A stretch of 64,000 bases of DNA from Dimargaris cristalligena (taxonomy: Eukaryota): positions 1 to 64,000 of the forward strand of contig ML002216.1 in assembly GCA_003614675.1 (NCBI GenBank), written 5' to 3'. Positions 29,878 to 49,282 of this stretch are shown here, one piece after another (position 1 is the first letter of the stretch; every line of letters begins with the position of its first letter). The translations under genes and the position numbers were made by a program. The notes beneath the pieces were generated by a model that did no database searches, was not told the origin of the DNA, and was given only the letters and a program-made list of their open reading frames with translations.

Positions 29878-32800
29878 TTACCATGAGAGGATTTCCTGGC
29901 TAGCGTCATTACAGCTCCTGGTACTGGCCTGGGCTTCATCGGCACTGTTGCTACCACAGGCAGAACCGGCGGCGTACTTATCAGGGTCGTCCGAGATGGC
30001 GGCCCGGAAGAGGCTGGCGCCGTACTTATTGTACATGGCAGTCACACCACCACCGCTGAGCAGGCGCTCTTCCATAAGGGAGAGACCGAAGGGGAAGGTC
30101 TTGCCACCGGCGTGGATAAGGCGCTCCTTAACGTCAATGCTGATTTCGGCACCCTCTTGGGCAATGTCGTAGAACTCGGGGTCCTTGAGGACGATTCCGA
30201 GCAGAGACATGTTGGGCTGGTTACGGGCGTAGATGAAGGCAAAAGACTTGGCAATGACGGCCTTGACACCGGCACCGCGGATGGCACGGGGAGCCTCCTC
30301 GCGGGAGGAACCGGAGCCGAAGCCCTCTTCACCCACAATGATGTTGAAGCCCTGCTTGACACGCTCGCGGAATTCGGGGCGCACGTGGAGGAAACAGCTC
30401 TCACCGAATTCCTCGTCAGTACCAGCACCGATGGCCTGGGCGGGGATAATTTGATCGGTATCGACGTGGTCACCGAAGCGCTGGACCTTACCAGTAATCA
30501 AAGTCGAGAAGGATCCAGTCGAGCTGTCCGTTTTCATGGGGCTACCGACACTGCCGCTGGTAGTGGTAGACTGGCCCTCGGGGGCCTCCTCGAAGGGCGA
30601 GGGGTTGGGCTCCGACACCACCACCTGGTCCACGGGCTTCTCGAGCCAGAGCTCCAGCATCTTCTGGAAGCGATCGTGGTCAATGGCGTTAAGCAGTTCG
30701 GTGGGGTCAGTCACAGCCATGTCGAAGCTGGAGACAGCTACTGTAGCTGCGCTGGCCAGGTTGGCAATACTACCGGGACCCATGCGGTTCTTGAAGTTAC
30801 GGTTCTGGGAGCTGAGCCAGACTTCACCGGCCAGGGCCTTATCGGCGGCCACCGCAATGCAGTAAGAGCAGCCAGGGGCACCAACGACGAAACCGGCCTT
30901 CTCGTAAGCAGACAGGAGGCCCAAGCGGCGGAGCTTAGCCAGGATGGGTACGGAGCCGGGGGTTACACGGCGCTTGCCATTGACAGTGGGGACCTTACCG
31001 GCCTTGAGACCAGCCTCCAGGACCAGAGCACCCATGATGAGGTCTTCCTCGGCCGTGGTACAGGCACCAATGAAGACACCGTCGAGCTTCATGTCCAGAG
31101 TGTCAAAAACGGGTACCACGTTATCGGGGGAAGGGTACAAGGCGACCAGGGGGTCGACGTCAGCCAAATTAATGACGTGGGTCTCGGCGTACTGGCAGTC
31201 GGGGTCGGCGCGGAAGTAGAGGGCCGAGTTTTTGTTATCGGGGTTGGTACGCTTGGAGATGTAAGAGGCGGTGATTTCGTCGGCCTCAAAGACACCAGCG
31301 ATACCACCGAATTCAGTAGTCATGTTGGAGATGGCGAACCGGGCGTCACAGCTCATGTACTTAAGACCGGGGCCGGTGTATTCCACGGCGCGTTCCATGG
31401 CCACGGTGTTACGCTTGAGCTTACCGAGCACGTACAGAATGATGTCCTTACCGCCCACACCGAAGCGGGGCTTACCCACGAAGCGGATGTTGACGGTTTC
31501 GGGCACCTTGAACCAGGTCTCACCAGTGACCAAGGGCATCACCACGTCGGCAGCCCCCAGACCCACAGCGAGGGCACCTACGGCACCGGCCGAGCAGGTG
31601 TGGGAGTCGGCACCAATCACCACCTGACCGGGCTGGGCGCGTTCGCGGTAGAACTCGGTATGCAGGATGGTATAGTTGGGGCGGTAAAAGTCCACCAGAT
31701 CGACCTCCTTGGCGAAGCTCTCCGACACGTTGACGAGGTGCTTCACCCGGGGTTGGTCCATAATACGGGGGTCCACGGAGTGGTCAATGGCCAGCCAGAA
31801 ACGGTCGTTACGGTTCACGCCGGGGCGGCCCATGAGATCGTAGGTCTTGTTCATGCCAATCCAGGTCAGCTCGGAAGCGACGGTCCAGTCGACCGAGACA
31901 CAGACCATATCACCAGGGGTGACGTGGCCAGGGGCAGGCAAATTGATGGCATTGTGGGCCAGAATCTTTTCGCAGATGGTCATACCACGGCGCTCGGTGG
32001 GGCGGTGAAGGAGAAGACCGCGGGGCACGCGGGCGTCGGCCGAGTTCAGGCCGCTCAGAAGGGGAAGGAGGGCCTTAATGACGGCATCACCCATCTCGAC
32101 AGTGGTGGCCTGGCCGCCCAAGTCACGGGTACGGATGCCGAACCCGTTGTACTGATCATCGTCAATTACGCGGCGTACGGCCTGCTCAATGGCGTTGGCC
32201 TCAGCCTCCAGACCCATGGAGTAGCGCAGCATCATGGCGGCGCTAAGAATGGTACCGATGGGGTTGGCAATGCCCTGTCCGGCAATATCGGGGGCGGAGC
32301 CGTGGATGGGTTCATAGAGACCCTTGCAAGAGCCCTTGCCGTCGGGGAGCCCACTGAGGGAGGCGGAGGGCAGGAGCCCCAGGCTACCGGGGATCACACT
32401 GGCTTCGTCGCTCAGAATATCACCAAACATATTTTCGGTGAGGATAACACCGTTTAGGAGCTTGGGGTTGCGGATCATGTGCATGGCGGCTGAGTCAACC
32501 AAGTGGTGGTCCAGCTTGATTTCAGGGAACTCCTTCTCGATGGTCTCGGTGACCACCTTGCGCCAGAGACGGGAGGTAGCCAGCACGTTGGCTTTGTCAA
32601 TGGAGTGAATGGGGAGGGGAGGGGACTGCTGCATGGCCAGGTTGGCGGCGCACCGAGTAATACGGCGGATTTCGTCGGCCGAATAGGGCATAGTATCGTA
32701 GGCGAAGCCGTCGACGTCGCCCTCCTTACGCTCACCAAAGTAGACACCTCCGATGAGTTCACGGACGATAATGTAGTCGGTACCGCGGACCACGTCGGCC

Positions 32801-33222
32801 TTCAAGGGAGATGAGTCAATTAAAGATTTGCTAATGAAGTAGACAGGGCGGATATTGGCGTACAGGTTGAGCACTTTCCGGAGGTCCAGAAGACCCTGTT
32901 CGGGGCGGGGACCGAGGCCCTTGCTGGGGTCGGTGGGATCGACGGGACGGGGCCACTGAGGGCCACCAATGGCGCCCATTAGAATGGCATCAGCCTCCCC
33001 CGCGGCAGCCAGAGTCTCTGGGGGGCAGGGGGAGCCAGTGGCATCGATGGCAGCACCACCAGCGAGAATGTGGCGGAAGGCAATCTGGAAACCCTGGGAG
33101 CGAGAGCGCTTTTGGGAGACCACTTGAAGCACACGGACGGCTTCGCGGGTGATTTCGGGGCCGATGCCGTCACCGGCGATGACGGCAACATTGTAGGTGC
33201 GGGGCTGACCAGTAGGGGCCAT
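29878..33222 (-). CDS. Fusion protein: 3-isopropylmalate dehydrogenase (Leu2/LeuB) + aconitase-family dehydratase large domain (LeuC/HacA-like) + swivel domain (LeuD/HacB-like)
   Basis: One intronless 1114-aa ORF. IPMDH motifs [48 protein letters not shown]. Dehydratase from MTICEKIL (31983) with DH, DSHT, GACT, GCSYC, NRNF. Swivel domain with [23 protein letters not shown]. Confidence 0.93.
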
Positions 33223-34184
33223 ATTGATTAAATATTTCTTTTGGGAACGGGCGGGGGTATGTAAAAATGGCGGACTGGTCTAGAGAGGTGGGAATGGGGA
33301 GCACGTATCGAGGAGAACGGACAGTAGGTGTTTCGGTGAATCAGTGCCCGAGAAAACAAATGCAAATGGGCTATAAAGGGAATACCGCTTAGATGGCCGT
33401 GGTGGGATGCGTGGTTGTTATACGGGGAGCGACCAGGTAATGGGACTAGCGCAGCGGTAATGGGTGGAGCAGTTGTATAGGGCACAACACTTACCAATAG
33501 AACAGTGTAGAGGAGGTGGGAAAGAAAGAGGCCAATGGATAGCAGGAGGAACACGAAGGAGGGGGGACTGCTTTTAGGTGGTTTTAAAACGGGCAAGGTG
33601 GGACAAACCTTACGGAGGGAGATAAGTTAAACAAAGTAGGGTAGTGGTACAGAACAAAGCAGCCGATGCGGTAATCTAAAGGAGGGGTATATGCAATGTA
33701 GAGGCAGGGGTGTCTGGAACAAGAAACGGATAAAGCGCAAATAACTGAGGTTGGCCGGCCGGGTTCTTTATATATCCAGCTATCAATGATGCATATAGGG
33801 TGTATATGCGGTTAGTATAGTATAGATAGTATCGTGGGGAAGTTGGTTGGGGATATATCGCCTTTGCAATTGAAATAGGTATGGCCAATATATTATGACA
33901 TGGCCATTTGCTCGGAGGTGGCGGGATTGGATAGACTAATGGGGTCCTTGCCATTTTAACCTATACCCCAGCGTCCCTTGATGACCCATTAAACAGAGCG
34001 TTTGCCGCCCATTGGCCCTTCATAGAGGGTGAGAGTCATTTAGCGCGTCTGAGGCGCCCATCAAGTAATGTGCTTCCCTGATAACATCTCCTCTTTCCCT
34101 TACGAAAGGGTGTCCTCTAAAGCTGGAGGCACATGGCGAAACAATACTAAATCCCTTCCGATTGGCTAGACTATTTCATCGATG

Positions 34185-34191: not shown

Positions 34192-36005
34192 CTCCCTACA
34201 GCAGCAACCCCCCTCTTCTTCTTCAACAGTAGTTGTCACTCCCGCAGAGGGTTAGAGTTTGGGGCCTGGGCACTGGAGAGAGGGTGTTTACTACCCACCT
34301 ACATTTCCTCGACCAACGATTGTCTGATGCCCTGATTCTTCCATCCGATTCCAGGGCACCATTGATCTATTTTTTATGATATCAAATTGGCATGTCGGCC
34401 CAGGTTCTGGGGGGCATATCACTGCTTCTTCAAGAGATATATATTATACCTCCATAACTGGCAGCCAGAGATATTTGTCAATCCAACCGCAGATCATCCG
34501 CCCTATATTGACCTAATCCGACTCTAAATTTTTAATTTAGTCACCTGACCGTTAGAAGCAGCTAATTGTTGGTTTATTACTTATCTAAAGGTGGAGTAGT
34601 ATACATCTGCAGATATCGAATGGTGTGGGCGAGAGGCATTCCCATCAGGGGTGCAATTTATGCACAACCTAATAATTGAATCAGCGAAAAACTTGAATCA
34701 GCGCAATAAGCCTACTCACCCATACGTGTCTGCCTTATAAACCAATGCCCCCCTGTCGCATTAGAGGCGGACACGTCATATACACAGTTGTTACAGTATG
34801 GTGGTGGTATGGTGTTGACGACTATTGACAGTTGATCTATGGCCTTTGGCCGGGTAATTTATCACAAGGAAGTCGACTCCCCAAGAAAGGCATTCAATAG
34901 GTAGATGGTGTCCAGGGTCTGTTGCATTGGTATTTGTGACGTCTAGTTTTAGAGGTTAATAAGTTGCCAAAGATTCTATTTTATGGGGAATGCCAGGACC
35001 GCGGTGGGTGATGGACTGTCACTCCGTTTTGTCAGACTGACCTTGGGCTCAAACCACCAATCAAAATCTTTCCTTGGGCACATTTTAACCCAATTTGCCG
35101 CGCTCATTTTTTAACCTCTACAGTTACGGGCCCAACCAAACTATCCGCCCGCGGCATTAAACAGCCTTACTATACTTTAATGGTCAGGTGTCATTTTCTG
35201 GTGATTGCGGCAATCAGTAACGAGGGGGGTAAGAAGAAAAACATGTATATTTAAAATTCGGAAAGTAGTCGGTATGGCCTAGTACCCAGCCCGTCTAAGG
35301 GCATCTTGTCAGCGGAAGCCCTAGGAATCACTCTATATCAGGGGAGCACCACGGCTGCAAACGTTGGTGACAAGGGGAGATGGCTCGCGCCAATTTGTAT
35401 TAATCTTGTAACTGTTAGTTGATCTATTGTAACTACTTGGTATTGTAGTATATAATTTTCAAAGCGTATGGGTAATATTCAGCACAGCTGTATAAGACTT
35501 TGAATGGTATATGTACGGGATCATAGGCAGGTGATTCATTTTCAACTGGTAGTATTTGCCCTATCCAACGGATTATTCATTATGCAGCCTGGTTGAACCT
35601 CTCCCGTATTCCTTATATTACCCGACTGAAATAGTTGCAATTATCTGTTAACTGTCGGTTTGGCAATCGCAAATTTATCAACGGATTTAACTACTCTATC
35701 AGGTACTATTATGGATCCGCCTCTATTTATCCATTGAGTAGTAAAAAAAATCAACCTTCTTAACAATGCTTTCGTTTCCCATCACTCGAACCTCGCAATA
35801 ATAGACAATTGCATTGTCGTGTTATTAGGCCAACCTACTTGTTATAAATAGGCGATTTCCGGGCACCTTTTGTACAAATATGCTTGGCTAGAGCTACACC
35901 CGACAATTCCAGAGCATTTGGATTTCTTAACCTCGGTTTGTATTGAAGTACTCAAATATCCATTCGGTTTATCTCGTATTAGTTAAATTATCTCTTTATT
36001 GGGCT

Positions 36006-36449
36006 ATGGCGTTTCTTTCATTTTTTAACCCGCTTTCCAACTCTATGCCCGGCGATGCCCCCTCATCCATTCCACCCAGATTAAGTACCGCTAAGCCCCA
36101 TTCCGCACCCGACCTAACTGCCACTATATCATTGGTATCTTCGGGACCCGCTAACCTCACCGATGCTGGACTTACTGAAGATTACATGAAGCATATTATT
36201 TTTAGGAAAAATAGTTGTACGTTGGCTGATGGCATATCGTTTTATATAAATGGGACCACTGGGTCGACCAAGATCTCGCCAATTCACCAAAATTCCGCGA
36301 GTGCCTTCAATTTCGGAGTTAACGAACCGTCCCTCGACTTTCGTGTTCAGACTTTGGTGGTTGAGGTTGATTATCCCACAATCGAGCCCCCAAGAGGCAC
36401 CGATCCGGACGCCGGTGACAACTCGACCACTTCCCAGCCTCCCCGTTAA
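36006..36449 (+). CDS. Hypothetical lineage-specific protein
   Basis: ATG ORF of 147 aa with TATAAATA about 160 bp upstream. No recognisable family. Confidence 0.4.
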   Translation: MAFLSFFNPLSNSMPGDAPSSIPPRLSTAKPHSAPDLTATISLVSSGPANLTDAGLTEDYMKHIIFRKNSCTLADGISFYINGTTGSTKISPIHQNSASAFNFGVNEPSLDFRVQTLVVEVDYPTIEPPRGTDPDAGDNSTTSQPPR

Positions 36450-37943
36450 AGCCACAACTATACCCTCTTTTCGCATTGTATCGCTAGGGCCACACACCGA
36501 TTCAAATAATAGTTTTAATGCCAGGCTTTATCAATCGCCCCTGGTCGCCCAAACATCCTCTGGGCAATAGTCTTTACCCAACTGATTGGAGTACGCCTGT
36601 CTACGAGTGTCTTGTTGCTGTCAAATCCCGGCCTGAAATTCAACATGTTGTATTGGTACCCAATAAAGGCTAGGGTTTTTGTCGTATTGTTGTTAAAAAT
36701 AATTGCTGTAAATCGGACCTGATTTTTATTCTTGAAGTCTTTAATTTAGGTTGGTTGCAATTAGTTGTACCAGGCTTACTGAGTCCTGTCTACTACTGTT
36801 TTCGATTGATTTTCTCTCTCGAATCTATATGCACTTCCATCCTAATATCCATATGGGTGAATTTCAGTCGAACTATATAGAGTTTGGAATGTAATCTGTT
36901 TGGTAAATTCGGTGGAATTATATACTGTATACCTGTACTAAATTCTACTTATACGCCAATATACAAAGGGCCGCCGCTAAAAAGCGTTTAAATTGCACCC
37001 TTAGGTGGTACCAATCGAAAAAGCGAGGCCATCGGTTGAACTGGCCATGGTTCGCAATGTCTATTCCATGGTATATGCCAGTTGGCGGTGGAGGCAATTG
37101 GCGAAATGACCCTGCTAAGCAATTTTCCATAATGCATTAGGCAATACTGAGGTTGGCCCCCGGACTGCATTATCTTTAATGAATTTTCCAGCCAAATTCT
37201 TTAATTAAAGAATACTTAGGAGGTATAGGTATGAAAATATAAAAATCCACATCTTAAATCAAGTCCGAGTTGGTGCATGGTTATTAGCAAGGCAGGAAGA
37301 AGAACTATAGTGGGGTTGTAGAATCAATATAATAATGCCAATTGTATTACCATTGCCTAATTATACCAAAGTCGAATAGATGATTTTAACAGATTGATAC
37401 ATAGGGTATTGTCAGTTTCCGGCACCAATTTCAATATGACTAATCGGAATTATAGCCAGTCTAGAAAATACCAAAGATACTTCCCTGGCTGTACTATATA
37501 ATATAACCTGGCAATTTAGAAGTCAGAGCAGCTGTTTAAGCTAGCCAATTTCCATAATTTCCATTGAAATAAACAAAGGCATATGTCCACGGCCCCTCCA
37601 TTATTCACACTACTGAGACGTCATTATCATATGTATGGAATAACACAGCCTAACCGCCCTATTACCAGCCTTTATCCCTGTCCAACTTCTAAAAAGTAAT
37701 TTATTGAACTATTAACACGATTTATTTATTAAGCAGGAGTCAGAATATAAAAAGGGTGCTATCTCCAGCTACATATAATTACATAAATATATATATGAAG
37801 ATTAACCGGCAACATAAATTTTAAAAATACCACATTTAACCTGCACTTTGGCAGGCACCTCCAAGTCAGCTTTTTAAGTGGAGGCTGGGTTATTTGCCTG
37901 ACCATGGTCAGCCTCGGAGAGCTCATGGTCATGTTCATAGGCG

Positions 37944-39675
37944 GGGTAGTCCCTCAGGGCAAATGAGGGATACCCAGTGGCCCCCTGTTGAGGATGGCTA
38001 AAAGAAATTTCTCCCTGCATTATTGCAGGGGATGATAGGTCTGTCTTTGAATAGACAGCTGCCAAAAAAGGGGAGAAATGGCTGTGGTATGGCCATTGGG
38101 AAAAGAGAAGAGGAGGGGGGGAAATAGGGGATGGGGAAAGAAAATGAAAGCAGATAGGGTGAGAAGCATGGGGATATAATGATGAGTGTGTAAAGATTTT
38201 TCAGCATCTGTTATTAATGATAGAATACTTGGGCCAGCATTTGCTTGCCTATTTATAACCAATCAGTGATTTTATTAATCAGATGAAGTGTAAGTGGTAC
38301 CTTACTATCCCTTCAAAGGAGACTACCTTCATGTGGCCATTTCAAAACAGTAATGGTGTGACAATACTATTGGAATACTAAGGATGTAAAGGAAATAAAA
38401 CTGGAAGTAAGGGAAGAAAGCAGCTAGGGGATAGTAGGTACCTCTAGGTGGTTAGTTTTATTGAACTGTATTTTCGATGGGGTGAAATATAAGTAGCTAA
38501 GATGAATGATCTTATAATAGCAGAATAAACTAACATAATTAAATGAAACAGGATAAGATAAAAAACATATAGGAATATGTTTTTCAATATTCAGTGGCCC
38601 AGAAACTACCCAATCTATATCCGTAAACATCCCCTGAACTGACAAGTTAGGACCTTACATCATGATATTGAAATAGCTTGAAAGGAAAGTCTGGGCAGTT
38701 TCACAAATCTCTGAGCTTAGTACTTAGAAAGTGGAGTTGCTCAACTCTATAAATGCACTATGGCAGCCTGGCTAAATATTATGGATTATTTGGTGAATAT
38801 ATATCCCTTCAAAAATTGCACCTATTAAGTATCTACATCTATGTCCTGGCAAGCCAGCAGGTAATCAGCCTTAGCCCATGTATCCTTTCCCAGTTTCTAT
38901 TATCTAGCTACCAATACTATTTTCTTTAGTATATAGTATTTGTTGCCTGGGTTAACTACTCTTAGTCTATTAAGAGTCCTGAGGATAGGCTTCTAATGGT
39001 AGGTGGGGCTCAGACTCAGCCAAGTGGGCTGCTAGTATCAGGATGGGGGTATAGTACTAATAAATAAAGGATCAGTACCAGTATATGCAAGGGATATGCA
39101 GTAGGCATACTTACTAGTTAATGTGAAGGGATGAGCATATATAGAGTTTATTGAGGTAAACTGGGGGACACAGATAAGCTGCCATTCAACCAGTCCTAGT
39201 GGGGCTAGTTATATGTATGCAGGGGACTACTCTAAAGGGAGGTCCCCAAAGGAAGATATTACTAAGACTATTGATGGATAACTTACTAACTGGATAGTAT
39301 AGGGTATAGAAGACTTTGGCTAGGAACTGGAAGAGTTATTAGATTAGCCCAGGAGTGAATAGTGGATTCCAGAGTCCAGAAGGAAAGGGTTATATAATAT
39401 AGGAGGATCCCATAGTACTGGGGGTGACTATGGGAGGGTAAATATGGTGCTATAAGGCCTAATAGGGGTGGGTAATCATTAAGTCTGGATTTAGGTTGGA
39501 TTAGGAGGGTTGACAGTGACAATAGAATTGATTGTATATAATTTATCATTAACCCATTTTGATGCAGTCTCCAAATTAATCAAATTAAGATATGTCCCTC
39601 ACAACATTGTCACATTGACCTTTGAGTACTATATAGTGGATCTTACTATGTTCTTTTAGACATTCACCAATTCCT
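37944..39675 (-). pseudogene. CpG-depleted decayed sequence, probably a degenerate spliced gene or repeat
   Basis: Only 2 CG dinucleotides counted in ~1730 bp. A minus-strand frame at ~38660-38810 reads FEGIYIHQIIHNI*PGCHSAFIELSNSTF*VLSSEICETAQTFLSSYFNIM followed by a GTAAGG donor-like site. Confidence 0.45.
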
Positions 39676-40472
39676 CGAGCTTTTAAACAACCCCAATAAA
39701 AATATGAAATCATAGGCATTTTATCCTTGTTCTGGGAAGTGGAGAGGGGTGGCAATATTCAGTAGCATTATTATTACCGTATGGTCTGTATAGACAATGG
39801 TATCCAGGCTGACTGACGGATTGTTAAGTCATAATTCTAGGATGCTTGTGTACAAACAGGTAGCATCTCTGCATTGGTATTCATCTATATCTATAGCCGC
39901 CTCAATATCCTACTTTGTTCTCGTACCATGGTGTGTATTCATTGGGACTTGCTTGATATCATCCTTTAATTGGACTTGTCAATGTTGACGAGGTTGCATG
40001 GTATACATTCTTTCAGTGAACTTCAGCGCTGCCCTATCCGATTTTCAATGATATGTGTATGAGAAAGTAGTCGGGGTAGTTAGTTTTAGCCAATAATATC
40101 CACCTCATAAAACGATGATTTCTTTATACATTCATATTGACCATCTTCCGTATCTACTTTTGTCAACATATGGATGAAAGATGTTGTGGCGGCGGTTCTA
40201 TTGACTAATAGCTCCTCATTAGCACCTCCTGAACCGCTGCGGCATTCGACCTACCTGCATACAAATATAAATAACCTAGGGGCTCCCTCCAGCTTAAGCT
40301 AAATTCTAAGTTGTTTTATTAGTGACGGCTACGGATTGTTGCCAATTTTTTTTTTTGATATTCCTCGATAGGGAACGTTTATATTTCCCTCCAAATACCG
40401 AGTCCCATTTTTTGGCGACTAATATTACATACATTACTTGTTTATTGATACATTAGGTAGCTATTGGTAGCA

Positions 40473-41145
40473 ATGCTCCCTTTGGATTCTCCCAGCGGCA
40501 AATTGTCTTTTAAAGTAGGAGGTAAGTGTGCGCATTATATAGTGGTGTATACAGTAAATAACTCATTATTTTAAGACCTGAATGTCTAATTACTGCCACA
40601 TAACTCTACAATGTCGAAATTAACATCCCAGTTAAATTAAGACCCATCTTTGGCAATACATGACCCAAAAATCGATACCAGTGGTTGGTTCGAACTTTAC
40701 AGCACTCATTCATCATCCCCTAAGATATTCGTGCCTATACCCTATATTGCTAGACAAAGTTAATTTTATCGACTGGCTGTTGCCTTACATTGTACACTCA
40801 GGCGTGATTATACGCATCGATGAAGATACTAACCAAATAGTCATCAAAGATAATTTTAAGGGGTCTCTCAAATGGCCATTGGACGGAATATTCATGAGAA
40901 ACGCTGAAATCCAATCTGAAAGTGCCGCGGGCAGTAAACCCATCCCTACTGCTAATAAAATGTTATTATGCTCAGCTGATCGATCAGCCACCTGCTTGCT
41001 CTCATCTGGTTCTCCGAAACACCTTTCCCCAATGGATCATCTAGGTATGTCCGACCTGATCAACGAATCCCAAACCGTTGATTATACCCGATGTGTCCCT
41101 ACAGCTGCAGCTCAATCTCAACGGGAAGACTATCTAGGATCATAA
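40473..41145 (+). CDS. Small Tudor/SH3-barrel-like protein, family member 1; exons 40473-40521 and 40754-41145 (146 aa)
   Basis: MLPLDSPSGKLSFKVG|DKVNFIDWLLPYIVHSGVIIRIDEDTNQIVIK. GTAAGT...TAG phase-1 intron. TATAAATA near 40266. Confidence 0.6.
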
Positions 41146-42434
41146 ATTGGGACCTGGTGATTATCATCACTTTTTGGTTTTCCAACACACTTATGTCGCC
41201 ATTCGCCTAGTTAGCTTGGCGCGCTGATGTGTACCACTTAGAGTATAATGATCGAATCAATAAACGGCGCCAGTCGCCTTGTAAATACTAGACGACGGGT
41301 TACCATTCAGCACGACCAGGATCTTGTTTTTGTTGGGGATATCAGCAAAAAATAATACGGAAGACCCCTATGATGGTATTTATCAGGTATGTTTCGACCA
41401 ATTAAAGCCCTTTGTAAATATAGAGTGCGGGAAAACGATTATCCACCAGGGTTGGGGCGGTTCTTCACCAGTTTTCACAATGTCTTGAGCCCTTAGCCGA
41501 CTGAGGCATCTTAGGTAAATATAAATGACAGAGGCGGATAATGTAGAACAATGTACCTTATCGTCCAAAGTGATAGTAGTAAAGTGACATTTTACCTTTC
41601 CTAATACATTGCCTGAAATAAAAATTCCGGGTAAAGCAGTTTATTAGCCAGCCAGGGTACCCAGTGGGCAATGTAGTACCTTATGAAGTAAGGGGTATAC
41701 AATTTACCTAGGTGAGCGTGGGCGACCAGTTAGAATCATGGGGGCCCTCCTACATATCGCGCCTTGCACCTATACCATTCTTTAATCATCCAGAAGACCC
41801 AGGTAATACTTGGTTGGAGGAGACTCTGATAATAAAATTTGCGAATGTAGTCCTCAATTACTATTCAATCATCTCATCATTCCGTTAGTTATCTTTCTTT
41901 ATAGTAACTCTTGGTTTCGTTAAACCATGTGCGTGTTTCCTGTTGCAATATATCTGTCAACGTAGCGAATACCGTTTGAACCATATACGATAGCCTAGAA
42001 TTGCAGCATGGCGGCATCAATAGCTGTATCGTTGATGCTTTATGATTCTAATCATCCTACAAGTAAATATGCTTTACTAAACTGGAAAGGGAGGGAACTG
42101 GTTCAATTTCTCCATCACACCAGTATGTGTGAATACATTACAAGAACCTTAAACCACGCAGTCACTATTGCGAGGATGGCATCACTCGTTCTCCCACAAG
42201 ACACTTTTCAAGTTTCAAAATATAAAAGGAGCCAGTCTTTCCAGCCAGCTCATCTATTATTATTCCCTAATTATATTAATCTGTCAACTGCTGTGGACAC
42301 CAACTAGATTTATTTCAGTTCTTTCCCGACATCATTCAACGTTTGCTCCTCGCGGCCAATTCGGTTATATAGTCTCCTACAAACTACTTTACCAACGTTA
42401 CTCTCGGCAACTCGATATTCGATCGGCTTTCAGC

Positions 42435-42863
42435 ATGCATACACCGGATCCCCTCAGCACTTGGTGTGATCTGAGTTGTGGAGGTAGGACTCGTAAATGA
42501 GAGTAGTTTTTAAGTGCCTTAAAGATATCGGGTCAGAACCGGTCTTCGTACTTTACGCTTGGTATTTTAATCTGTATTGAGCTAACCGCCTCGCATCAGT
42601 AAACATAAAGCGCCTTGGTCTAACCTATTTCAATTATTATATTCCAAACTATATTTATGGGGTCAAATATTCTCTTACTCCTCGACCATTTGTTTCTTAC
42701 CATGGCAGATGTGATCGATATCATCTTTATAGACAAACCAGGCTCGCGCTATAAAGCCATGTTCATTGAATATATTGACTTCGTCGACGAAGTCGTCCTG
42801 CGCCTTCAAGATGGTTACAGAAGATCATATAGAGCTGACACAATTCAATACTATTTGGATTAA
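42435..42863 (+). CDS. Small Tudor/SH3-barrel-like protein, family member 2; exons 42435-42483 and 42709-42863 (67 aa)
   Basis: MHTPDPLSTWCDLSCG|DVIDIIFIDKPGSRYKAMFIEYIDFVDEVVLRLQDGYRRSYRADTIQYYLD. GTAGGA...CAG phase-1 intron. TATAAAAG at 42221. Confidence 0.6.
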
Positions 42864-43781
42864 CAGTCAAAAGTGAGGCCTTTCTCGCTCTGTACAAGGT
42901 GCCTAATCCAGATCTGCTTGTCAGCCTACTTACTTTACCTGTCTGATTTTAGTCCTCCATAATAAAATACCCTTTATCATCCTGTGGATCACGCGCTGAT
43001 TTATACACGTAAATCAATCACATAATGTCCTAACAAAAATAACACCCACTAATTTAGCCACCCATCATTAGCTAGGTAACTTGTGGGTCAAACAACCGAT
43101 TGCGTCCGTTGTTGGGGCGTCCGTCGCAGCAAGATTGAAGGAATGTGTGCAGTATAGGTTATGTTTTGGCAGTCTGGTATGGGTGGAGTAATATCCAATT
43201 GTCCAATTTTTAGAAATAGCTCTTCCGACTATCTATCAGCCAATTGGGGCGGGGTGTGATATCCGAATCTGATGGGGAGGAGCCCACCATACAAAAATGG
43301 GGTTAGGTCAAATGTTGAGAAGGGATAAGCCCCATCTGTAATTATTCACCAATAACCATTGGTTAGATTTTTTTACTACTGTACGTTAGCCATACAGAGT
43401 CGTAAATGTCCATTGGCTATATTTATTAGTGCACCCATTATACATATCGCATTGGCCGATTTTGATCCCTATCACTTGAATTGTACAAACCTCACATTGA
43501 CAATAGGGATACTTGGTTGAAAGGACCAAGATTTACGCGTGCCCTTTGCATAACAAAATGGTGATAAAAGGACGGGCCAATTCCCCTTTATTGTTTTAAA
43601 AATATCCAAACAACTCGCACACCTCGTCCGTTTAACCATTTCTCATTTGCATTATACCTTAACTACCGTGGTAGGTATCGCCACACCTTCGACTGGATTT
43701 CGCAGACTTGTTTTCGACAAAACTCCTTTCGTTCTTTCTATATCCACCCCACCCAGCCCCACCCCTTCACTCTCCAAAGTA

Positions 43782-44744
43782 ATGGCTGAACCAATTGTTG
43801 GTAAACCCGGCTGGGCGATGGCAGTTCTAATGTTCTGTAGTCTCCCGTTGCCAGTCATGGGCGCTCTATTGCCCAATCAATATGAAAATGACTCGCGCAA
43901 CCTACCCCAGAGCACCAGTAGTCAAAGTGAAAATGAGCTTCAAATTTGGAAAAGAGTCCTAGAAAGGCGTTTCGATGGTTCGGAATTTGTTAGCGCTGCT
44001 CACTCTGACCCTAACGATCCCAATTGGCAGGCTACTTTAGCTTTCCTTCGGAATAGAGGTCTACTACAAATTGGGAGCTTTAATCCTGGACGAGTCCAGG
44101 CCCCATCCGGACCATTAGCTGGCCCCACCACGGCGATTCGACCCGCTGGATTGCAACTAGGGCAAACCGGCACCAACAACCAAAGGCAATCCTTCACCCC
44201 ACCCTCCGAACAGATCCCCCAATATTCAACCCTCTCGGCCTACCCAACCATCAGCGAGATCATTGAGAAGTGCCGTATTATTTCGGGCCAGGCATTCTCT
44301 CGGCAACACCTAAAAGCGATGCCCTCGCAGAAGGTCAAGGACCAAGTAACGCGTTCCTTTAGTGAGCATAGATTAAAACTATTTAAAGATATGCGTTTGG
44401 TCATTGGTGGAAAGGGCAACATACACTTTACAGAATATTTCATTGATAAAATAACCCGGGCCTATAAACGGGTTATAAGGTATTCGTTGACACCCTACTT
44501 CATCTAAGCTTTGGATTGGGATACTAGCTACCAGGCCATTACCCTCAATTATTTGACCAACGAAAATGGCTACCGCTGTGAAGATCTGGTCCAGCTTAAT
44601 AGCGGGAGCTCGCCATACCTAAGTATTCGTACATTTCCGATGGAATATAGTATGGAAAACATGAGACACATCATGGAAACCTATCTGAGGAAATCAAATC
44701 AAAACCAAATGTCCTATTGGGCATCATATCGCAAAAACAATTAA
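43782..44744 (+). pseudogene. Lineage-specific, possibly secreted protein with one in-frame TAA (44505-44507)
   Basis: Hydrophobic leader WAMAVLMFCSLPLPVMGA. ORFs 43647..44507 and 44511..44744 are in the same frame, separated by a single TAA. Confidence 0.5.
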
Positions 44745-46705
44745 CCCCAATCGCCTAATTGAATAAACCAGGTAGAAAAATTTATACATTTCACCATTAT
44801 TATAATTATTATATGCTATTTTGCTGCTCAATTCCCCCAATGAACTTTCAACCACGCCTCCCGACAGAACGGTACTCAGCTGTGGATTGGGTCGTGTTTT
44901 ATTGGTATTTAAGTATTTAGAATAAATATGTGTTTTTCTTTACCTACCTACCATGTACTTTGAGGTTATAACCAAAGAGTAGTGTACACTGATTCGATAT
45001 TAGTTAATTTAATCTGTATATTTTGTTGTATGGTTCAAAAGATGTTTTGTAGGCTGCAACGATTATTTATTAATAAAATGCCTGGAAAAGGCAGGGTATT
45101 TTCTCTTGATTAGCAATATGCCCTGGTCAAGCTGCCTGACAAGGCCTCTAACTTATTAAATTGGAGAAGTAAGTACAGCAAGCCATTACACTCCTTTCCA
45201 ACTTTCTCATACTTTAGTGACCGGGACTTGTACCTAGAACAGCCATATATTATAATTGGTTCTGAGTCAGCAGTTGCTCTTTAGGTTGGGCAACCTTTTC
45301 ACAGTATTAAATGTGATGGTTTACTATGGAATTGGGGCTTAAGTATGGTATTGTTTTACACTTGTAAAATATCTCACCGAAATTCTCGACACGATACTAA
45401 AGAAAAGGTGGCACGTCAAAGTAGGCTTCTGATAGTCCTTTATTGAAGGTGATATGAACTCCGCCCCGACCATTAAGATAAAGACCACAGAACCAAGAAA
45501 AATGTAAGTGAAGGGTATAGGCTATAAACTCACAGAATTTTCCTGGTGGAGTTTTATCCAACCTACTAGCATAGGTCCGAGGCAAGACTATTTACCATTG
45601 TACAATGTTAACCCTTGTTCAATAATTCTGAAGAGAGTAGCTTACTAAACAACCACGTATTTTATTTGCACCTGTAGTCATCCATCCTCACAAAACTATG
45701 TTAAGGTATTCTTCAGAGGTTACCAAATTACATTAGGGGTAAAAAGGCCGAACTCATAGGACTATTCAGACGTGTTCAATAAATATATCAAATTTAGGTA
45801 TGCTAATTCCACAACAGCTGTCAACCTAAATACACAGTACCATTGCTGGAATAGTTTCCGAGTCTGGAACACGGACGGTTTAAGTTATAGCATCTCTTTA
45901 TTGCCTATATTCACGGTCTTTGCCACTGATTTTCCAGTAAATTCGGCTCGCTTTATCACCATTAAATACAATTAAAAAAGAACTGCAGACGAACATGTTT
46001 ATACGTGCTTTACTGCGACAGCTAGTGGTCCAAAATGATATGTGTATCTTTATTCAAGCTATGGAAGTATTAGGTGCAAGGCTGATCCGGAACTCTAAAC
46101 TTGTCAATGGCCGATTTAAAGATTACTTGGTGCAGAAGCTATATATTTTAATACCCTATTCAACTCCTGGTTTAATTGAAGGGCCGATGTTGATTTTACG
46201 TTGATATGGGTCAATAGAACAGCGACTTAATGGGAAAAATCTTGCCGTATTCCAATCGCTTATCATTCAGTCACTGGGGTGGCTTCACCACCACTCAATG
46301 TCGCTGGGGTGATGGGGAATTTTCCATGATTGTTCGAATAACATATTCCATGAAGAACACCAATGGTCATGTTCCAACATGAATGATTCCATTCAAGGTT
46401 GATATGGAATGAAAAGACCCATTCAATCCATTACTACCGTGTCATTTAATGAAACACTCAACTGTTATGGCTGCCGTGAAGTGGTTGGAATTTGTAGGGG
46501 TATATAAAGCAAGTCATCCAGACCATGAGCCCAGACTCCACCAAACTCGTATCTTTTCACCACTAACCGCCCCAGCCTTCTCTAAGCATCCGCCTGTCTT
46601 GCCAATAACAACCGCCGGACACCACTCTCTGCACAAATTTACCATTGATCAATTTAAGTATCGAGCGTATCAAAACCCTAGCTTGTTCCAACAGTTGTCA
46701 ACGAG

Positions 46706-47598
46706 ATGGACAATCTAAGACCGACTGGTAGGTTGCGTTCAATTAATGCCTGTCTATTAGGCATATTAGAATTGTTAGAATATAGCTCGGTCCTGGATTT
46801 TTTCAGTCTCTGGTATGAACATAGTACAGGGTCTATCAAATGTACAGTGTAGTATACTATTCAAAAGTCTTGGAGATGCACCAATTTTAACCAATTTATT
46901 TTATTATCCTCTTATAATTTCTTTGGTCGGTAGATTACTTTTACTATGCCAAATATACGTCCCCTAAAAATATTACTCTGGGACAGGTCTGTCATATTGA
47001 TAGAACTTACAATATCGTAATCTCCCAACTGGGTGATGGACCACAACTCTACCTAAGTGCCAATACCTGCTCTTTCCGGGCCGTAAGGGATATCCCTGTT
47101 GAATTATTTGACGATGGGTTCCCAAGTTTTATGGGTGAATTTCATACCGTACTACCCAAGAACCCATCTCTACCGACTTCAATGAGTTGGGGAGACGCCA
47201 ACGCGCTGCATGAGTATTTGCGGATGCATTTTACCCCCCCGCCACCGGGAAATACATTAGGACCGTCGGTTCCTAGCATGGTTCCCCCGAGCCACAACAT
47301 CTTTTATTGGCCCAGCAGTCCCACCAATCGCAACAATCTGCAGTCAATGGGATCAGTTCTAGAATTAAGCAATAACCTATCATCTCATAATATTACTCCT
47401 ACAGTCTCGATGTTGAATAACATGAACATCCACTCCTCCCCAGCTTTGTTCCCCAAGAACGGACTGTTACCCCCATTTATGATCAACCCGTTTGAAGCGA
47501 GCCAGGGCCCATTCTTACCCCCGGTTAGCAGCGCCGTGATAAGCTTTAACGGTGATGACAATGGGGAAGACCAGCAAGCGCCGAATAATGATAGTTAA
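46706..47598 (+). CDS. Tudor/SH3-barrel-like family member 3 with a P/N/S-rich C-terminal extension; exons 46706-46727 and 46934-47598
   Basis: MDNLRPT|DYFYYAKYTSPKNITLGQVCHIDRTYNIVISQLGDG. GTAGGT...TAG phase-1 intron, in frame with ORF 47131..47598. TATATAAAG at 46501. Confidence 0.55.
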
Positions 47599-49282
47599 TA
47601 TGCCCCGTTTATGAGCAATCGTCCTCGAAAAACCAGGGAATTTTGGCAACAGTTAAATAAAAAGTACCTTAGGGGACTCGTGGTGGATTGATCACCATCC
47701 CCTGTTGCAGCCCCACTCACTAAAATTGCCCTCGATTTCTGAAGCATAACACTAAGGATGTTACCCCAACATCATCGGATGGGCCGAATGAAATATATTC
47801 GGAATAGATTTAGATTTAGATAGTTTTGTCGAAATAAAGCACTAGATACCCATATCACAATTGTGACATTAAATTCCCAAAGGGCTTTAATCTCATCTGG
47901 CCATAAATGGGGGGATATTTTATATAATTACGGCTTATATTTTTTTATTTTTCTCGATGCCCTAGAGTTGAGCAGGTCGACTTATATGTAAATCAGTAGC
48001 CAGCTGGAGTTACCTTGGTCTCTGCGGGTAAGCCTCTCTGAATAAGGGATAGTAAATGGGCTTAAACTTGACAGTCCACGACCTAGTGCGTGGTGGAACA
48101 GACACCCGATTACATTGGGCTGGGCTCATTATATTCAAGACGAACAGGGGGGGGGTTATTATTTAACTATACTACCTTAATAACAGCTAAAGCTGTTCGG
48201 GCGCTATCCGCATTATATATTAGTACAAGGGATACGGAGCTGACTAAAACCCCTTCTTTATAAAACTACTCATCGGAATTGGCATTGCCTAACCGGCCCT
48301 TTAAGGCATTCCACACCACCTTCATTATAGTTGGTGAAGGTCGTGGTTTGGGTTATTAATTATGGTGGAAATAATTCCCAAAAACCTCTAATAGATTGTT
48401 ATTGGACTAAGTTGAAGTCACGCATGACCTACGTTAGCCCCCCTGCAGCACACACAGGCTTCGCTTTTACAAAAATGAAAGCAACTCACTGCCTTCCATC
48501 TTCACTCTTCTTGTTGAAATCCGTTGAACCAGTTTGATTACTTAGGCCAGATTTTACACATACCCAGCGAAACTGTCATCTAATTGTCTTTATTCATTAA
48601 ACCTCAGCCGAACCCCCAGGTCGATCTTCACTACCAGTAAAAGGGGGCGAAAGGATAGCAGTATCCGTATCGGTGGCCATTAATAGTGCACACATTCTCT
48701 GGAATTGGTGTTTTACAAGCAGCACTTCCCCAACGAAACTGTGCGCAATAATAAATGCACGCCCCCCATTTCCACGACACTAGTAGAATACAGGATTATC
48801 TAGATTAGGGTAAATGATTATAGACAAAGGAACTCACCTCTACCTTGGCTATCCCCACCCTCCCTGTCACCGGCCGTTAAATCTTTGTCAAGGCAAACTA
48901 ATTTTTAATTTCAGACAAGGTTAGTGTATAATAGTTGAAAAGGCCAAGTGTGAGTGACCTGATGGTCAGTAGTTGGGAAATATACCATAGGTGCCAATAA
49001 TAAAACTATGAAGGATAAACCGACTGGGAATGACGAGCAGGGTTCACCCAGAGATATGCATAAAAATACACGGACAGGTGTATCCGAGGGTTATAGGCGA
49101 GGGAAATTGTACAGCGGTGGGGCATTATAATAGTTATAGAAACAATATAAGCTAAACGGCCCATCGTATAATAAGAGGGTTAATAAAATATACATGGCCA
49201 CACAGTTCCCATCCAGGCAGATCAAACTATTTACTTCAGCAAGCAATGCTTTAGGGCCACTAAGTAACACCGGAGCATCTGT

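What the first reader, a model, noticed from the sequence alone, without database searches (positions are those of the whole stretch)
40473..47598. Hidden cluster of three small Tudor/SH3-barrel-like genes with an identically placed intron
Seen: three + strand two-exon genes (40473, 42435, 46706). Each has a TATA box ~200 bp upstream, a tiny first exon (49, 49 and 22 nt) and a ~205-235 nt phase-1 intron that splits the same Asp codon. Spliced, they align: FKVG-D-KVNFIDWLL-P-YIVHS-G-VIIRID..NQIVI / LSCG-D-VIDIIFIDK-P-GSRYK-A-MFIEYID..EVVL / LRPT-D-YFYYAKYTS-P-KNITL-G-QVCHID..NIVI, with Pro at D+10 and Gly/Ala at D+16 in all three. The 67-aa member follows the Tudor pattern (GD.h.h......Y.A.h......h.h.h.DG...h....I). 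Identity is very low but gene structure is conserved. Inference: an old, rapidly diversifying family of stand-alone reader-like mini-domains in an accessory island, with unknown function. The ORF track shows only fragments of them.
Basis: partly seen in the sequence, partly recalled or inferred. Interest (0 to 1): 0.7.

Follow-up and report, generated by a model that had tools for sequence, protein, structure and literature searches.

The report
Fast-evolving fungal mini-barrel gene family
A fungus that parasitises other fungi carries a private family of tiny two-exon genes whose best-studied members fold into a small beta-barrel and change their surface unusually fast, as genes in a biological arms race do, but what they bind is not known.

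Summary
Three two-exon genes sit at the stated coordinates, with GT-AG phase-1 introns (232, 225, 206 nt) and a TATA box 205-214 nt upstream. The genome holds 10 copies on five contigs, 8 intact, in duplicated AT-rich islands. One paralog is on public record (Dimargaris cristalligena, hypothetical) with the same splice. The three types align best without gaps at the intron (16 of 17 cross-type pairs). The 67-aa gene folds as a five-strand SH3-like barrel (pLDDT 85); the third gene's model is weak; the first was not folded. New here: all five copies of the 67-aa type stay open although the coding DNA changes as fast as the intron, and site models give about 54% of codons at omega 2.9. The Tudor-reader reading is not supported: no copy has a full aromatic cage. 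Ancestry is split between Sm/LSm (Sm1-like motif; intron shared with the LSM1- and LSM8-like genes) and KOW. No homolog was found outside the species, and expression is untested. Best reading: binding or decoy modules in a genetic conflict. The scan had not noted this family; it noted analogous barrel arrays in phages.

The parts
38936..39515 (.). Multi-copy repeat of about 570 bp with no CpG, bordering the island; the same repeat lies just upstream of exon 2 of the broken copy of gene 1 (C1834)
   Evidence: (CpG observed/expected 0.0)
40266..40272 (+). TATA-type box of gene 1, 207 nt before the ATG
40473..40521 (+). Gene 1 (type A) exon 1, 49 nt
40522..40753 (+). Gene 1 intron, 232 nt, GT-AG, phase 1
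40754..41145 (+). Gene 1 exon 2: putative barrel (about 50 codons, not folded here) plus tail; 146 aa in all
41366..43295 (+). About 2-kb unit (upstream region, gene 2, downstream region) found again as tandem pairs on C1202 and C713
   Evidence: 82% identity to C1202 over 1943 columns
42221..42227 (+). TATA-type box of gene 2, 214 nt before the ATG
42435..42483 (+). Gene 2 (type B) exon 1, 49 nt; Trp, Leu and Gly at -7, -4, -1 invariant in 5 of 5 copies
42484..42708 (+). Gene 2 intron, 225 nt, GT-AG, phase 1
42709..42863 (+). Gene 2 exon 2: the whole five-strand SH3-like barrel; 67 aa in all
43782..44507 (+). Unrelated intronless 241-aa gene with a hydrophobic N-terminus and its own paralogs; island neighbour, not a family member
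   Evidence: (no Pfam family)
46501..46507 (+). TATA-type box of gene 3, 205 nt before the ATG
46706..46727 (+). Gene 3 (type C) exon 1, 22 nt; same length in the publicly annotated paralog P0001
46728..46933 (+). Gene 3 intron, 206 nt, GT-AG, phase 1
46934..47598 (+). Gene 3 exon 2: putative barrel (low-confidence model, same strand order) plus Pro/Ser/Asn-rich tail with acidic end; 228 aa in all

Best explanation
These are real spliced genes of one species-restricted family. Each encodes a small five-strand SH3-like beta-barrel, alone (type B, 66-67 aa) or with a tail (types A and C). The family spread by tandem and segmental duplication in AT-rich, repeat-dotted islands, with birth and death of copies. 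In type B a fixed core and a few fixed surface residues are kept while about half of the codons change amino acid faster than neutral. The most likely mode of action is an intracellular protein-binding or decoy module: an acidic barrel that grips a partner whose surface keeps changing, so that each copy is retuned. The partner would be a protein of the fungal host of this haustorial parasite or of a resident virus or transposon. Shown: gene structure, paralogy, maintained reading frames, diversifying selection in type B. Predicted: the barrel (good for B, weak for C, untested for A). Inferred only: expression, binding, the conflict and its opponent.
For: Gene models and paralogs. Same splice in two public records of a paralog. 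Cross-type alignment best at offset 0 from the intron in 16 of 17 pairs (offsets -6 to +6), group z 3.9-5.3. Five of five type-B copies open, against 0, 0 and 1 of 3000 neutral simulations; 15 distinct non-triplet gaps in 764 non-coding columns while the 66 codons compare without a gap; tree length 1.22 coding against 0.82-0.97 non-coding. M2a against M1a statistic 15.4 (p 4e-4), M8 against M7 17.1; 38% of sites at omega 0.25 and 54% at 2.9; 0 of 101 null simulations reach 15.4. Barrel model pLDDT 85, four of five models above 81; Foldseek and VIA lists are made of small SH3-like barrels. Type-B barrels have net charge -2 to -7, which fits a protein or basic-peptide partner better than RNA. 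Copies are paralogs, not haplotypes: 19.9 kb of flanking housekeeping DNA has no near-identical second copy. Dimargaritales are haustorial biotrophs on fungi (PMC9866270, passages).
Against: No transcript or peptide evidence. The selection test rests on 5 sequences and 65 codons, run with my own code; gene conversion between paralogs or mutation bias could inflate it, and overall omega is 1.18. Selection was not tested by site for types A and C (pairwise omega 0.99 for C over 84 codons). Homology between the three types is weak by profile comparison (P 0.005, 0.011, 0.058; probabilities at most 7.5%) and their introns and promoters show no similarity above background. The type-C model has pLDDT 54 and best Z 2.9. 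No signal peptide-like N-terminus (crude test), so delivery into a host is unexplained. No partner is known.
Confidence: 0.5

Rival explanations
1. The family descends from an LSM1/LSM8-type Sm-like subunit and still works through Sm chemistry: it joins or poisons LSm rings or binds RNA.
For: G-x5-D-x3-N-x-hydrophobic in genes 1, 3 and the C1105 copy matches the Sm1 block seen in 14 Sm/LSm segments of this genome, in 0 of 9 KOW domains, and 8 times in 44,725 residues of other long ORFs. Two of 16 Sm/LSm genes read (LSM1-like on C288, LSM8-like on C268; names are my inference from sequence) have a phase-1 first intron in the same codon, two residues before the first core residue of strand 1, 225 and 223 nt long. 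Hfq, Gemin7 and Edc3 LSm rank at Z 5.1-5.5. An LSm profile scores gene 3 and the C1105 copy above all but 6 and 2 of 500 shuffles.
Against: No match to Pfam LSM: the genome search lists 18 places, none in these genes. Five of 8 intact copies (all type B) lack the Asn and are acidic. The family lacks the second intron of both LSm genes. Profile-profile P 0.08-0.29. The motif and the intron were noticed after the fact; the two LSm genes probably share one ancestral intron, and a chance match among the introns of 16 genes is about 1 in 10 (my estimate).
Confidence: 0.17
2. The family descends from a KOW domain (Spt5- or ribosomal-protein type) and acts as a decoy on RNA polymerase II or ribosomes.
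For: Hydrophobic-x-x-Gly-Asp start, Pro in the first loop and Gly six residues later. Profile-profile P 0.010-0.017 over 33-35 columns, the lowest of the three classes tried. Gene 1 beats all but 3 of 1000 shuffles on a KOW profile of 9 domains. One KOW domain of the Spt5-like gene on C2099 scores above 5000 of 5000 shuffles of gene 3 and 4989 of 5000 of gene 1; for types A and C together none of 9000 decoy windows (of 12,641) reaches it.
Against: No match to Pfam KOW: 9 places listed, none in these genes. The loop glycine of the KOW motif is absent. Type B shows little or no signal (239-1000 of 1000 shuffles as good on the profile). The best alignment of gene 3 is heavily gapped and out of structural register; the domain was picked from 72 comparisons. 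The Spt5-like ORF has no intron there.
Confidence: 0.12
3. Stand-alone Tudor-type readers of methylated lysine or arginine.
For: Gene 2 and its C1202 twin have Phe, Tyr, Leu, Asp, Tyr at positions 6, 14, 32, 34, 36 of exon 2, close to cage spacing (TDRD3 cage 0, +7, +25, +28, +30 and 53BP1 Y1502-Y1523, PMC3281842, passages). Phe6 and Asp34 are invariant in 5 of 5 type-B copies. Gene 1 aligns with the genome's SPF30-like Tudor domain at z 3.6. Tudor domains appear at Z 4.4-4.6, within 1 of Hfq.
Against: No copy has four aromatic residues at the cage positions; genes 1 and 3 have at most one. Positions 14 and 36 are in the omega>1 class (posterior 0.86, 0.96). No Pfam Tudor match. Profile-profile P 0.16-0.27 against two own Tudor domains. 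The SPF30-like gene's intron lies 11 codons upstream of the matching Asp.
Confidence: 0.1
4. The three types are unrelated small genes that share a common micro-exon layout by chance; only the within-type paralogy is real.
For: 6-12 identities of 57 between types; no non-coding similarity; profile probabilities at most 7.5%; gene 1 not folded, gene 3 poorly folded.
Against: Best gapless offset falls at the intron in 16 of 17 pairs; Pro10 in 10 of 10 copies, broken ones included; same strand order predicted for B and C; same TATA distance; same strand and same islands on several contigs.
Confidence: 0.07
5. Neutral, unexpressed duplicates drifting in a repeat-rich island.
For: Overall omega near 1; coding identity about equal to intron identity; 2 of 10 copies broken; GC3 0.38-0.51 against 0.67-0.73 in two housekeeping genes.
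Against: Open frames in 5 of 5 type-B copies against at most 1 of 3000 simulations; start codon kept in all five (about 3% of simulations); 16 of 66 codon columns invariant; a conserved site class is needed (statistic 28.4, p 7e-7). The genes keep their CpG (0.73-1.03) while the neighbouring repeat has none.
Confidence: 0.04

Closest known systems
DUF903 / YgdR bacterial lipoproteins (PDB 2rd1, 3fif, 2k57, 3bdu, 2rb6, 5cai)
   Same: Closest solved fold to the gene-2 model: Z 6.4-7.7, rmsd 1.3-2.3 A over 48 of 50 residues; stand-alone proteins of about 55 residues.
   Different: 4-17% identity; all Z under 8, which may mean only a common arrangement. DUF903 proteins have a signal sequence and a lipidated Cys and some form hexamers or heptamers (bioRxiv 10.64898/2026.05.26.727983, 3 passages); the fungal genes have no such signal.
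Hfq and Sm/LSm proteins, in particular LSM1 and LSM8
   Same: Five-strand barrel at Z 4.7-5.5; Sm1-like G-x5-D-x3-N in types A and C; first intron at the same codon and phase as in the genome's LSM1- and LSM8-like genes.
   Different: Below the Pfam LSM threshold; first loop two residues longer with an invariant Pro; short loop between strands 3 and 4; type B acidic and without the Asn; second intron absent; fast evolution instead of deep conservation.
KOW domains (Spt5/NusG, ribosomal proteins)
   Same: Start motif and spacing of the second-strand Gly; lowest profile-profile P values.
   Different: Below the Pfam KOW threshold, loop glycine missing, little signal in type B, not part of a larger conserved protein.
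Tudor domains (SMN, TDRD3, SPF30, 53BP1)
   Same: Five-strand barrel; partial cage-like spacing in gene 2.
   Different: No complete aromatic cage in any copy; cage-equivalent sites vary fast; lower Z.
Phage families of stand-alone small barrels (T4 GoF, MotB.1, Frd.2; SH3/Tudor-like clusters of the Viral AlphaFold Database)
   Same: Small, very divergent barrel proteins expanded in a parasite (PMC12152347, abstract; PMC12487901, 2 passages). The best BFVD matches are mostly uncharacterised phage proteins, many of 50-80 aa (best E 0.037).
   Different: Here the genes are eukaryotic, with introns and TATA boxes; no sequence link to phage proteins was found (Atlas scores 0.84 at most).

Membership tests
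SH3-like small beta-barrel fold | Five antiparallel strands with a short helix between strands 4 and 5 (type B) | tested here: met
   Model of gene-2 exon 2: strands 2-6, 13-22, 27-32, 37-41, 45-49, three-residue helix 42-44, pLDDT 85; matches over residues 1-50
SH3-like small beta-barrel fold | Same fold in type C (gene 3) | tested here: inconclusive
   pLDDT 54, five strands in the same order; 6 chains at Z 2.0-2.9
SH3-like small beta-barrel fold | Same fold in type A (gene 1) | not tested
   No model made; rests on the intron-anchored alignment
Tudor methyl-lysine/arginine readers | Cage of four aromatic residues plus Asn or Asp | tested here: not met
   Positions 6, 14, 32, 34, 35, 36 of exon 2: gene 1 D H D F K G; gene 2 F Y L D G Y; gene 3 K T L D G P; 0 of 8 intact copies complete; spacing from PMC3281842; mapping is by sequence and strand order, not by superposition
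Tudor methyl-lysine/arginine readers | Match to a Pfam Tudor-type model | tested here: not met
   No such family at E up to 10 for 9 exon-2 peptides; genome search with PF00567 lists 2 other genes
Tudor methyl-lysine/arginine readers | Binding of methylated peptides | not testable with these tools
   Needs a peptide array or calorimetry
Sm/LSm/Hfq | Sm1 signature G-x5-D-x3-N | tested here: inconclusive
   Present in 3 of 8 intact copies (types A and C), absent in the 5 of type B
Sm/LSm/Hfq | Sm2 signature (hydrophobic-Arg-Gly before the short helix) | tested here: inconclusive
   Tyr-Arg-Ala in 2 of 8 copies, Leu-Asp-Gly in one, neither in the others
Sm/LSm/Hfq | Match to Pfam LSM above the curated cut-off | tested here: not met
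   18 places found in the genome, none in these genes; own LSm profile gives at most 3.5 bits
Sm/LSm/Hfq | Ring assembly through strands 4 and 5, and RNA binding | not testable with these tools
   Needs size-exclusion with light scattering, electron microscopy and RNA-binding assays
KOW motif | Conserved glycine in the loop after strand 1 | tested here: not met
   Gly at D+7 in most of the genome's 9 KOW hits; Trp, Ile, Tyr, Lys, Arg or Asn there in the family; glycine named as characteristic in PMC6076269 (passages)
KOW motif | Match to Pfam KOW above the cut-off | tested here: not met
   9 places, none in these genes; own profile 6.7 bits for gene 1, under 1 for the rest
DUF903 / YgdR lipoproteins | Signal sequence followed by a lipidated Cys | tested here: not met
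   No hydrophobic leader before the barrel; feature
Classical secreted fungal effectors | N-terminal signal peptide | tested here: not met
   Best 11-residue hydropathy in the first 30 residues is 0.3-1.2 for types A and C; 1.2-2.0 for type B, where it comes from strand 1 of the barrel; crude test, no signal-peptide predictor was available

The most novel reading that the evidence does not exclude
A haustorial mycoparasite has turned an LSM1/LSM8-type subunit into a family of fast-evolving decoy barrels that enter or block LSm rings (mRNA decay, U6 splicing) of its fungal host or of its own cell under viral or transposon pressure; the shared first intron is the fossil of that origin.
Probability: 0.1. 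Interest if true: 0.85.

Novelty: new variant of a known kind. Interest (0 to 1): 0.5.

Why it matters
Nothing in the listings of my paper searches describes effector-like or positively selected microprotein families in Dimargaritales. Only 1 of the 8 intact copies turned up in the protein collections searched, so gene callers seem to miss most of them. If the reading holds, the family gives a small, easy-to-express handle on an arms race in an early-diverging fungus-on-fungus parasite: five paralogous 67-residue barrels with a mapped set of fast-changing residues can be used as baits to find the opponent. It would also be a eukaryotic counterpart of the barrel expansions seen in phages. If the LSm ancestry is right, it would show a core RNA-processing subunit recycled as a conflict protein.

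Tried and rejected
RNA runs: none was listed for 40200-47800, so no reads were laid; this is no evidence on expression. Homo-oligomer prediction of four copies of gene-2 exon 2: no answer, score 0.00; no evidence either way. Homolog searches: type-B alignment, 2 candidates, none at E up to 1; nine-sequence profile against 1.84 billion representatives, 14 hits, of which I read 4: one is the C1105 paralog, three are unrelated repeat proteins, and the other ten, mostly short multi-stretch matches in long proteins, were not read; P0001, 1 of 308 candidates, itself; gene-1 exon 2, 0 of 21 candidates; these searches covered near-length proteins only, so fused forms were tested only. ESM Atlas: best 0.84, unnamed clusters. 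Pfam, NCBIfam and PDB sequence searches: nothing significant; the only Pfam hint was GatD_N at E 0.2. More family members: a profile run over 105 held sequences (626,599 bases, with overlaps) found no new copy; this covers a small part of the 30.65-Mb genome. Parent gene by shared intron: BAH genes (3 places, long open frames), the SND1- and SPF30-like Tudor genes, Crb2-type Tudor (no match) and 9 KOW places (one has an acceptor 2 nt away) do not share it. BAH matches of the gene-3 model (Z 2.2-2.9) set aside as too weak. Haplotype duplication rejected as the source of the copies, though PMC9866270 says this species may be non-haploid. No KOW domain of Spt5 type is among the top 50 rows of either VIA list, which does not exclude it. 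The LSM8-like splice printed is off by one base; the junction cited is read. PMC2650416 leaves LSM1 out and its intron figures could not be seen, so how widely that intron is conserved was not checked.


Full report
1. Observation. Exon 1 is 49, 49 and 22 nt; the introns are 232, 225 and 206 nt, GT-AG, phase 1, and split an Asp codon; the spliced frames give 146, 67 and 228 aa, whereas acceptor shifts of one or two bases give 17-36 aa. TATA-type boxes lie 207, 214 and 205 nt before the start codons. A generic filter for this layout passes 6 start codons in the whole window, 3 of them these genes. The window is fungal: housekeeping genes with high GC3 flank an AT-rich stretch from about 34 to 49 kb. 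A paralog is named as a hypothetical protein of Dimargaris cristalligena, a haustorial parasite of other fungi (PMC9866270, 12 passages seen).

2. The family in this genome. Single-protein searches of G000 give five copies of the gene-2 type (B: window, two on C1202, two on C713), three of the gene-3 type (C: window, C1105, C713) and two of the gene-1 type (A: window, C1834). Eight are intact, with introns of 183-235 nt at the same place. Two are broken: the C1834 copy has four stops and a repeat just upstream of exon 2, and the C713 type-C copy has an insertion in its intron, a frameshift at the start of exon 2 and a stop. The C1105 copy, spliced as predicted, is identical to P0001, which two public records carry: gene callers chose the same 22-nt first exon, which supports the model but is not proof of splicing. 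The islands are segmental duplicates at 65-82% DNA identity; they are not haplotypes, since 19.9 kb of neighbouring housekeeping DNA has no near-identical copy (19 matches, the longest a 75% paralog). A profile over 105 held sequences found no further member; most of the genome was not covered by that scan.

3. Are the three types one family? By ordinary measures the link is weak: 6-12 identities of 57, profile P values of 0.005, 0.011 and 0.058, no similarity of introns or promoters. Anchored at the intron and without gaps, however, offset 0 is the best of 13 offsets in 16 of 17 cross-type pairs, with group z of 3.9, 4.2 and 5.3 against shuffles. Shuffles destroy strand periodicity, so any two barrels would score somewhat; the telling point is that the best register coincides with the splice site. 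Pro at D+10 is kept in all 10 copies. I put common descent at about 0.9.

4. Fold. Gene-2 exon 2, folded with its five-sequence alignment, gives five strands and a three-residue helix before the last, pLDDT 85. Closest solved chains are DUF903/YgdR proteins (Z 6.4-7.7, rmsd 1.3-2.3 A, 48 of 50 residues), then Hfq, BirA C-terminal, Gemin7 and Edc3 LSm domains (Z 4.7-5.5), then Tudor domains (Z 4.4-4.6). No Foldseek match reaches E 0.001 in PDB or BFVD. All Z are under 8, so the fold class is clear and the family is not. Gene 3 gives the same strand order at pLDDT 54 and nothing above Z 2.9. Gene 1 was not folded. A survey of small barrels notes that one fold serves RNA binding, ring assembly and peptide binding (bioRxiv 10.1101/140376, 12 passages seen), so the fold gives no function.

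5. Selection. Among the five type-B copies the coding tree is longer (1.22) than the intron, upstream and downstream trees (0.90, 0.97, 0.82), with the same topology in all four. Yet all five frames are open (0, 0 and 1 of 3000 neutral simulations from three roots), the 66 codons compare without a gap while the non-coding alignments hold 15 distinct non-triplet gaps in 764 columns, and 16 codon columns are invariant. One-ratio omega is 1.18. A conserved class improves the fit (statistic 28.4), and a class above 1 improves it further: M2a against M1a 15.4, p 4e-4; M8 against M7 17.1, p 2e-4; 38% of sites at 0.25 and 54% at 2.9. None of 101 data sets simulated under M1a reached 15.4 (largest 6.3). 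Fast sites cluster in the loop after strand 1 and the start of strand 2 (11-15), at 19, 23, 25, and from 31 to 41; slow sites include Trp-7, Gly-1, Ile2, Ile5, Phe6, Pro10, Phe18, Glu20, Tyr21, Val29, Asp34, Gly35, Tyr40. Limits: five sequences, my own implementation, no recombination test beyond matching tree shapes. For type C only a pairwise value exists (0.99 over 84 codons).

6. Which barrel class? Tudor: gene 2 has Phe, Tyr, Leu, Asp, Tyr near cage spacing (PMC3281842, 8 passages seen), but no copy has a full cage, types A and C have at most one of the residues, and two of the sites vary fast. Sm/LSm: types A and C carry G-x5-D-x3-N, the Sm1 block of this genome's Sm genes, absent from 9 of 9 KOW domains, and 2 of 16 Sm/LSm genes, LSM1-like and LSM8-like by my reading, have their first intron in the same codon and phase; against this, type B lacks the motif and is acidic, Pfam LSM does not match, and both LSm genes have a second intron that the family lacks. 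KOW: best profile P (0.010-0.017) and a hit to one KOW domain of the Spt5-like gene, but the loop glycine is missing, type B gives little signal and the best alignment is gapped. All three leads were found after looking, among more than a hundred comparisons. I rate ancestry LSm 0.3, KOW 0.25, Tudor 0.1, other or unrecoverable 0.35, and file the family under none of them.

7. How it most likely works. Shown: genes kept open by selection, with a fixed core and a fast-changing remainder, in islands that also hold a secreted-like gene family and a DUF6540 gene and that border CpG-free repeats. Inferred: a domain of 50 residues with no catalytic motif is a binding module; diversifying selection across paralogs points to a partner that itself changes; the negative charge of type B (-2 to -7) favours a protein or basic peptide over RNA. 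The lack of a signal peptide points to action inside the parasite's cell or to non-classical export. I give 0.5 to the whole reading, split about evenly between a host-directed role and defence against a resident virus or transposon; the tools cannot separate the two.

8. Novelty. No homolog was found outside the species and no family model matches. The scan's own notes hold no look-alike (0 windows) but do hold four phage arrays of divergent small SH3-like proteins (unchecked notes); print has similar phage families (PMC12152347, abstract and outline; PMC12487901, 2 passages). Ten paper searches were run; in the listings I saw no description of this family. Supplements of the Dimargaritales genome papers were not read and could list some copies. 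Other papers seen in passages only: PMC2650416, bioRxiv 10.64898/2026.05.26.727983, PMC6076269. Gene names for the genome's own LSm, Tudor, Spt5 and ribosomal genes are my inference from sequence, not from a call.

9. Verdict. A real, mostly unannotated, species-restricted family of small-barrel genes under diversifying selection: a new variant of a known kind. The Tudor-reader label should be dropped. Interest 0.5: the evolutionary signal is clear, while expression and partner are unknown.

Noticed in passing
window 43782-44507 (+): Intronless 241-aa gene with a hydrophobic N-terminus and no Pfam family; paralogs on C1202 (broken), C44, C238, C1334 and C1969 at 24-70% identity: a candidate secreted family of its own.
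   Followed up: partly
window 37500-39515: CpG-depleted tract (observed/expected 0.0-0.34) ending in a repeat of about 570 bp found on at least 35 other contigs.
   Followed up: partly
L014:3434-3817 (-) and L008:2843-3230: 128-aa DUF6540 gene with upstream non-coding exons, next to the type-C gene on C1105 and C713, followed by part of a duplicated ABC-transporter gene at 88-91% identity.
   Followed up: partly
window 35997-36449 (+): 150-aa ORF behind a TATA-type box at about 35843, no Pfam family; same AT-rich island.
   Followed up: no
L121 (G000:C288) and L114 (G000:C268): LSM1-like and LSM8-like genes share a phase-1 first intron in the same codon, 225 and 223 nt long.
   Followed up: partly
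window 29878-33279 (-): Isopropylmalate dehydrogenase fused to an aconitase-type isomerase, with a 75% paralog on C1586; already noted by the scan.
   Followed up: no
L007 9690-10000 and L008 1-250: The intron of the broken type-C copy on C713 holds an insertion of about 330 bp that resembles sequence found downstream of the type-C gene on C1105.
   Followed up: no
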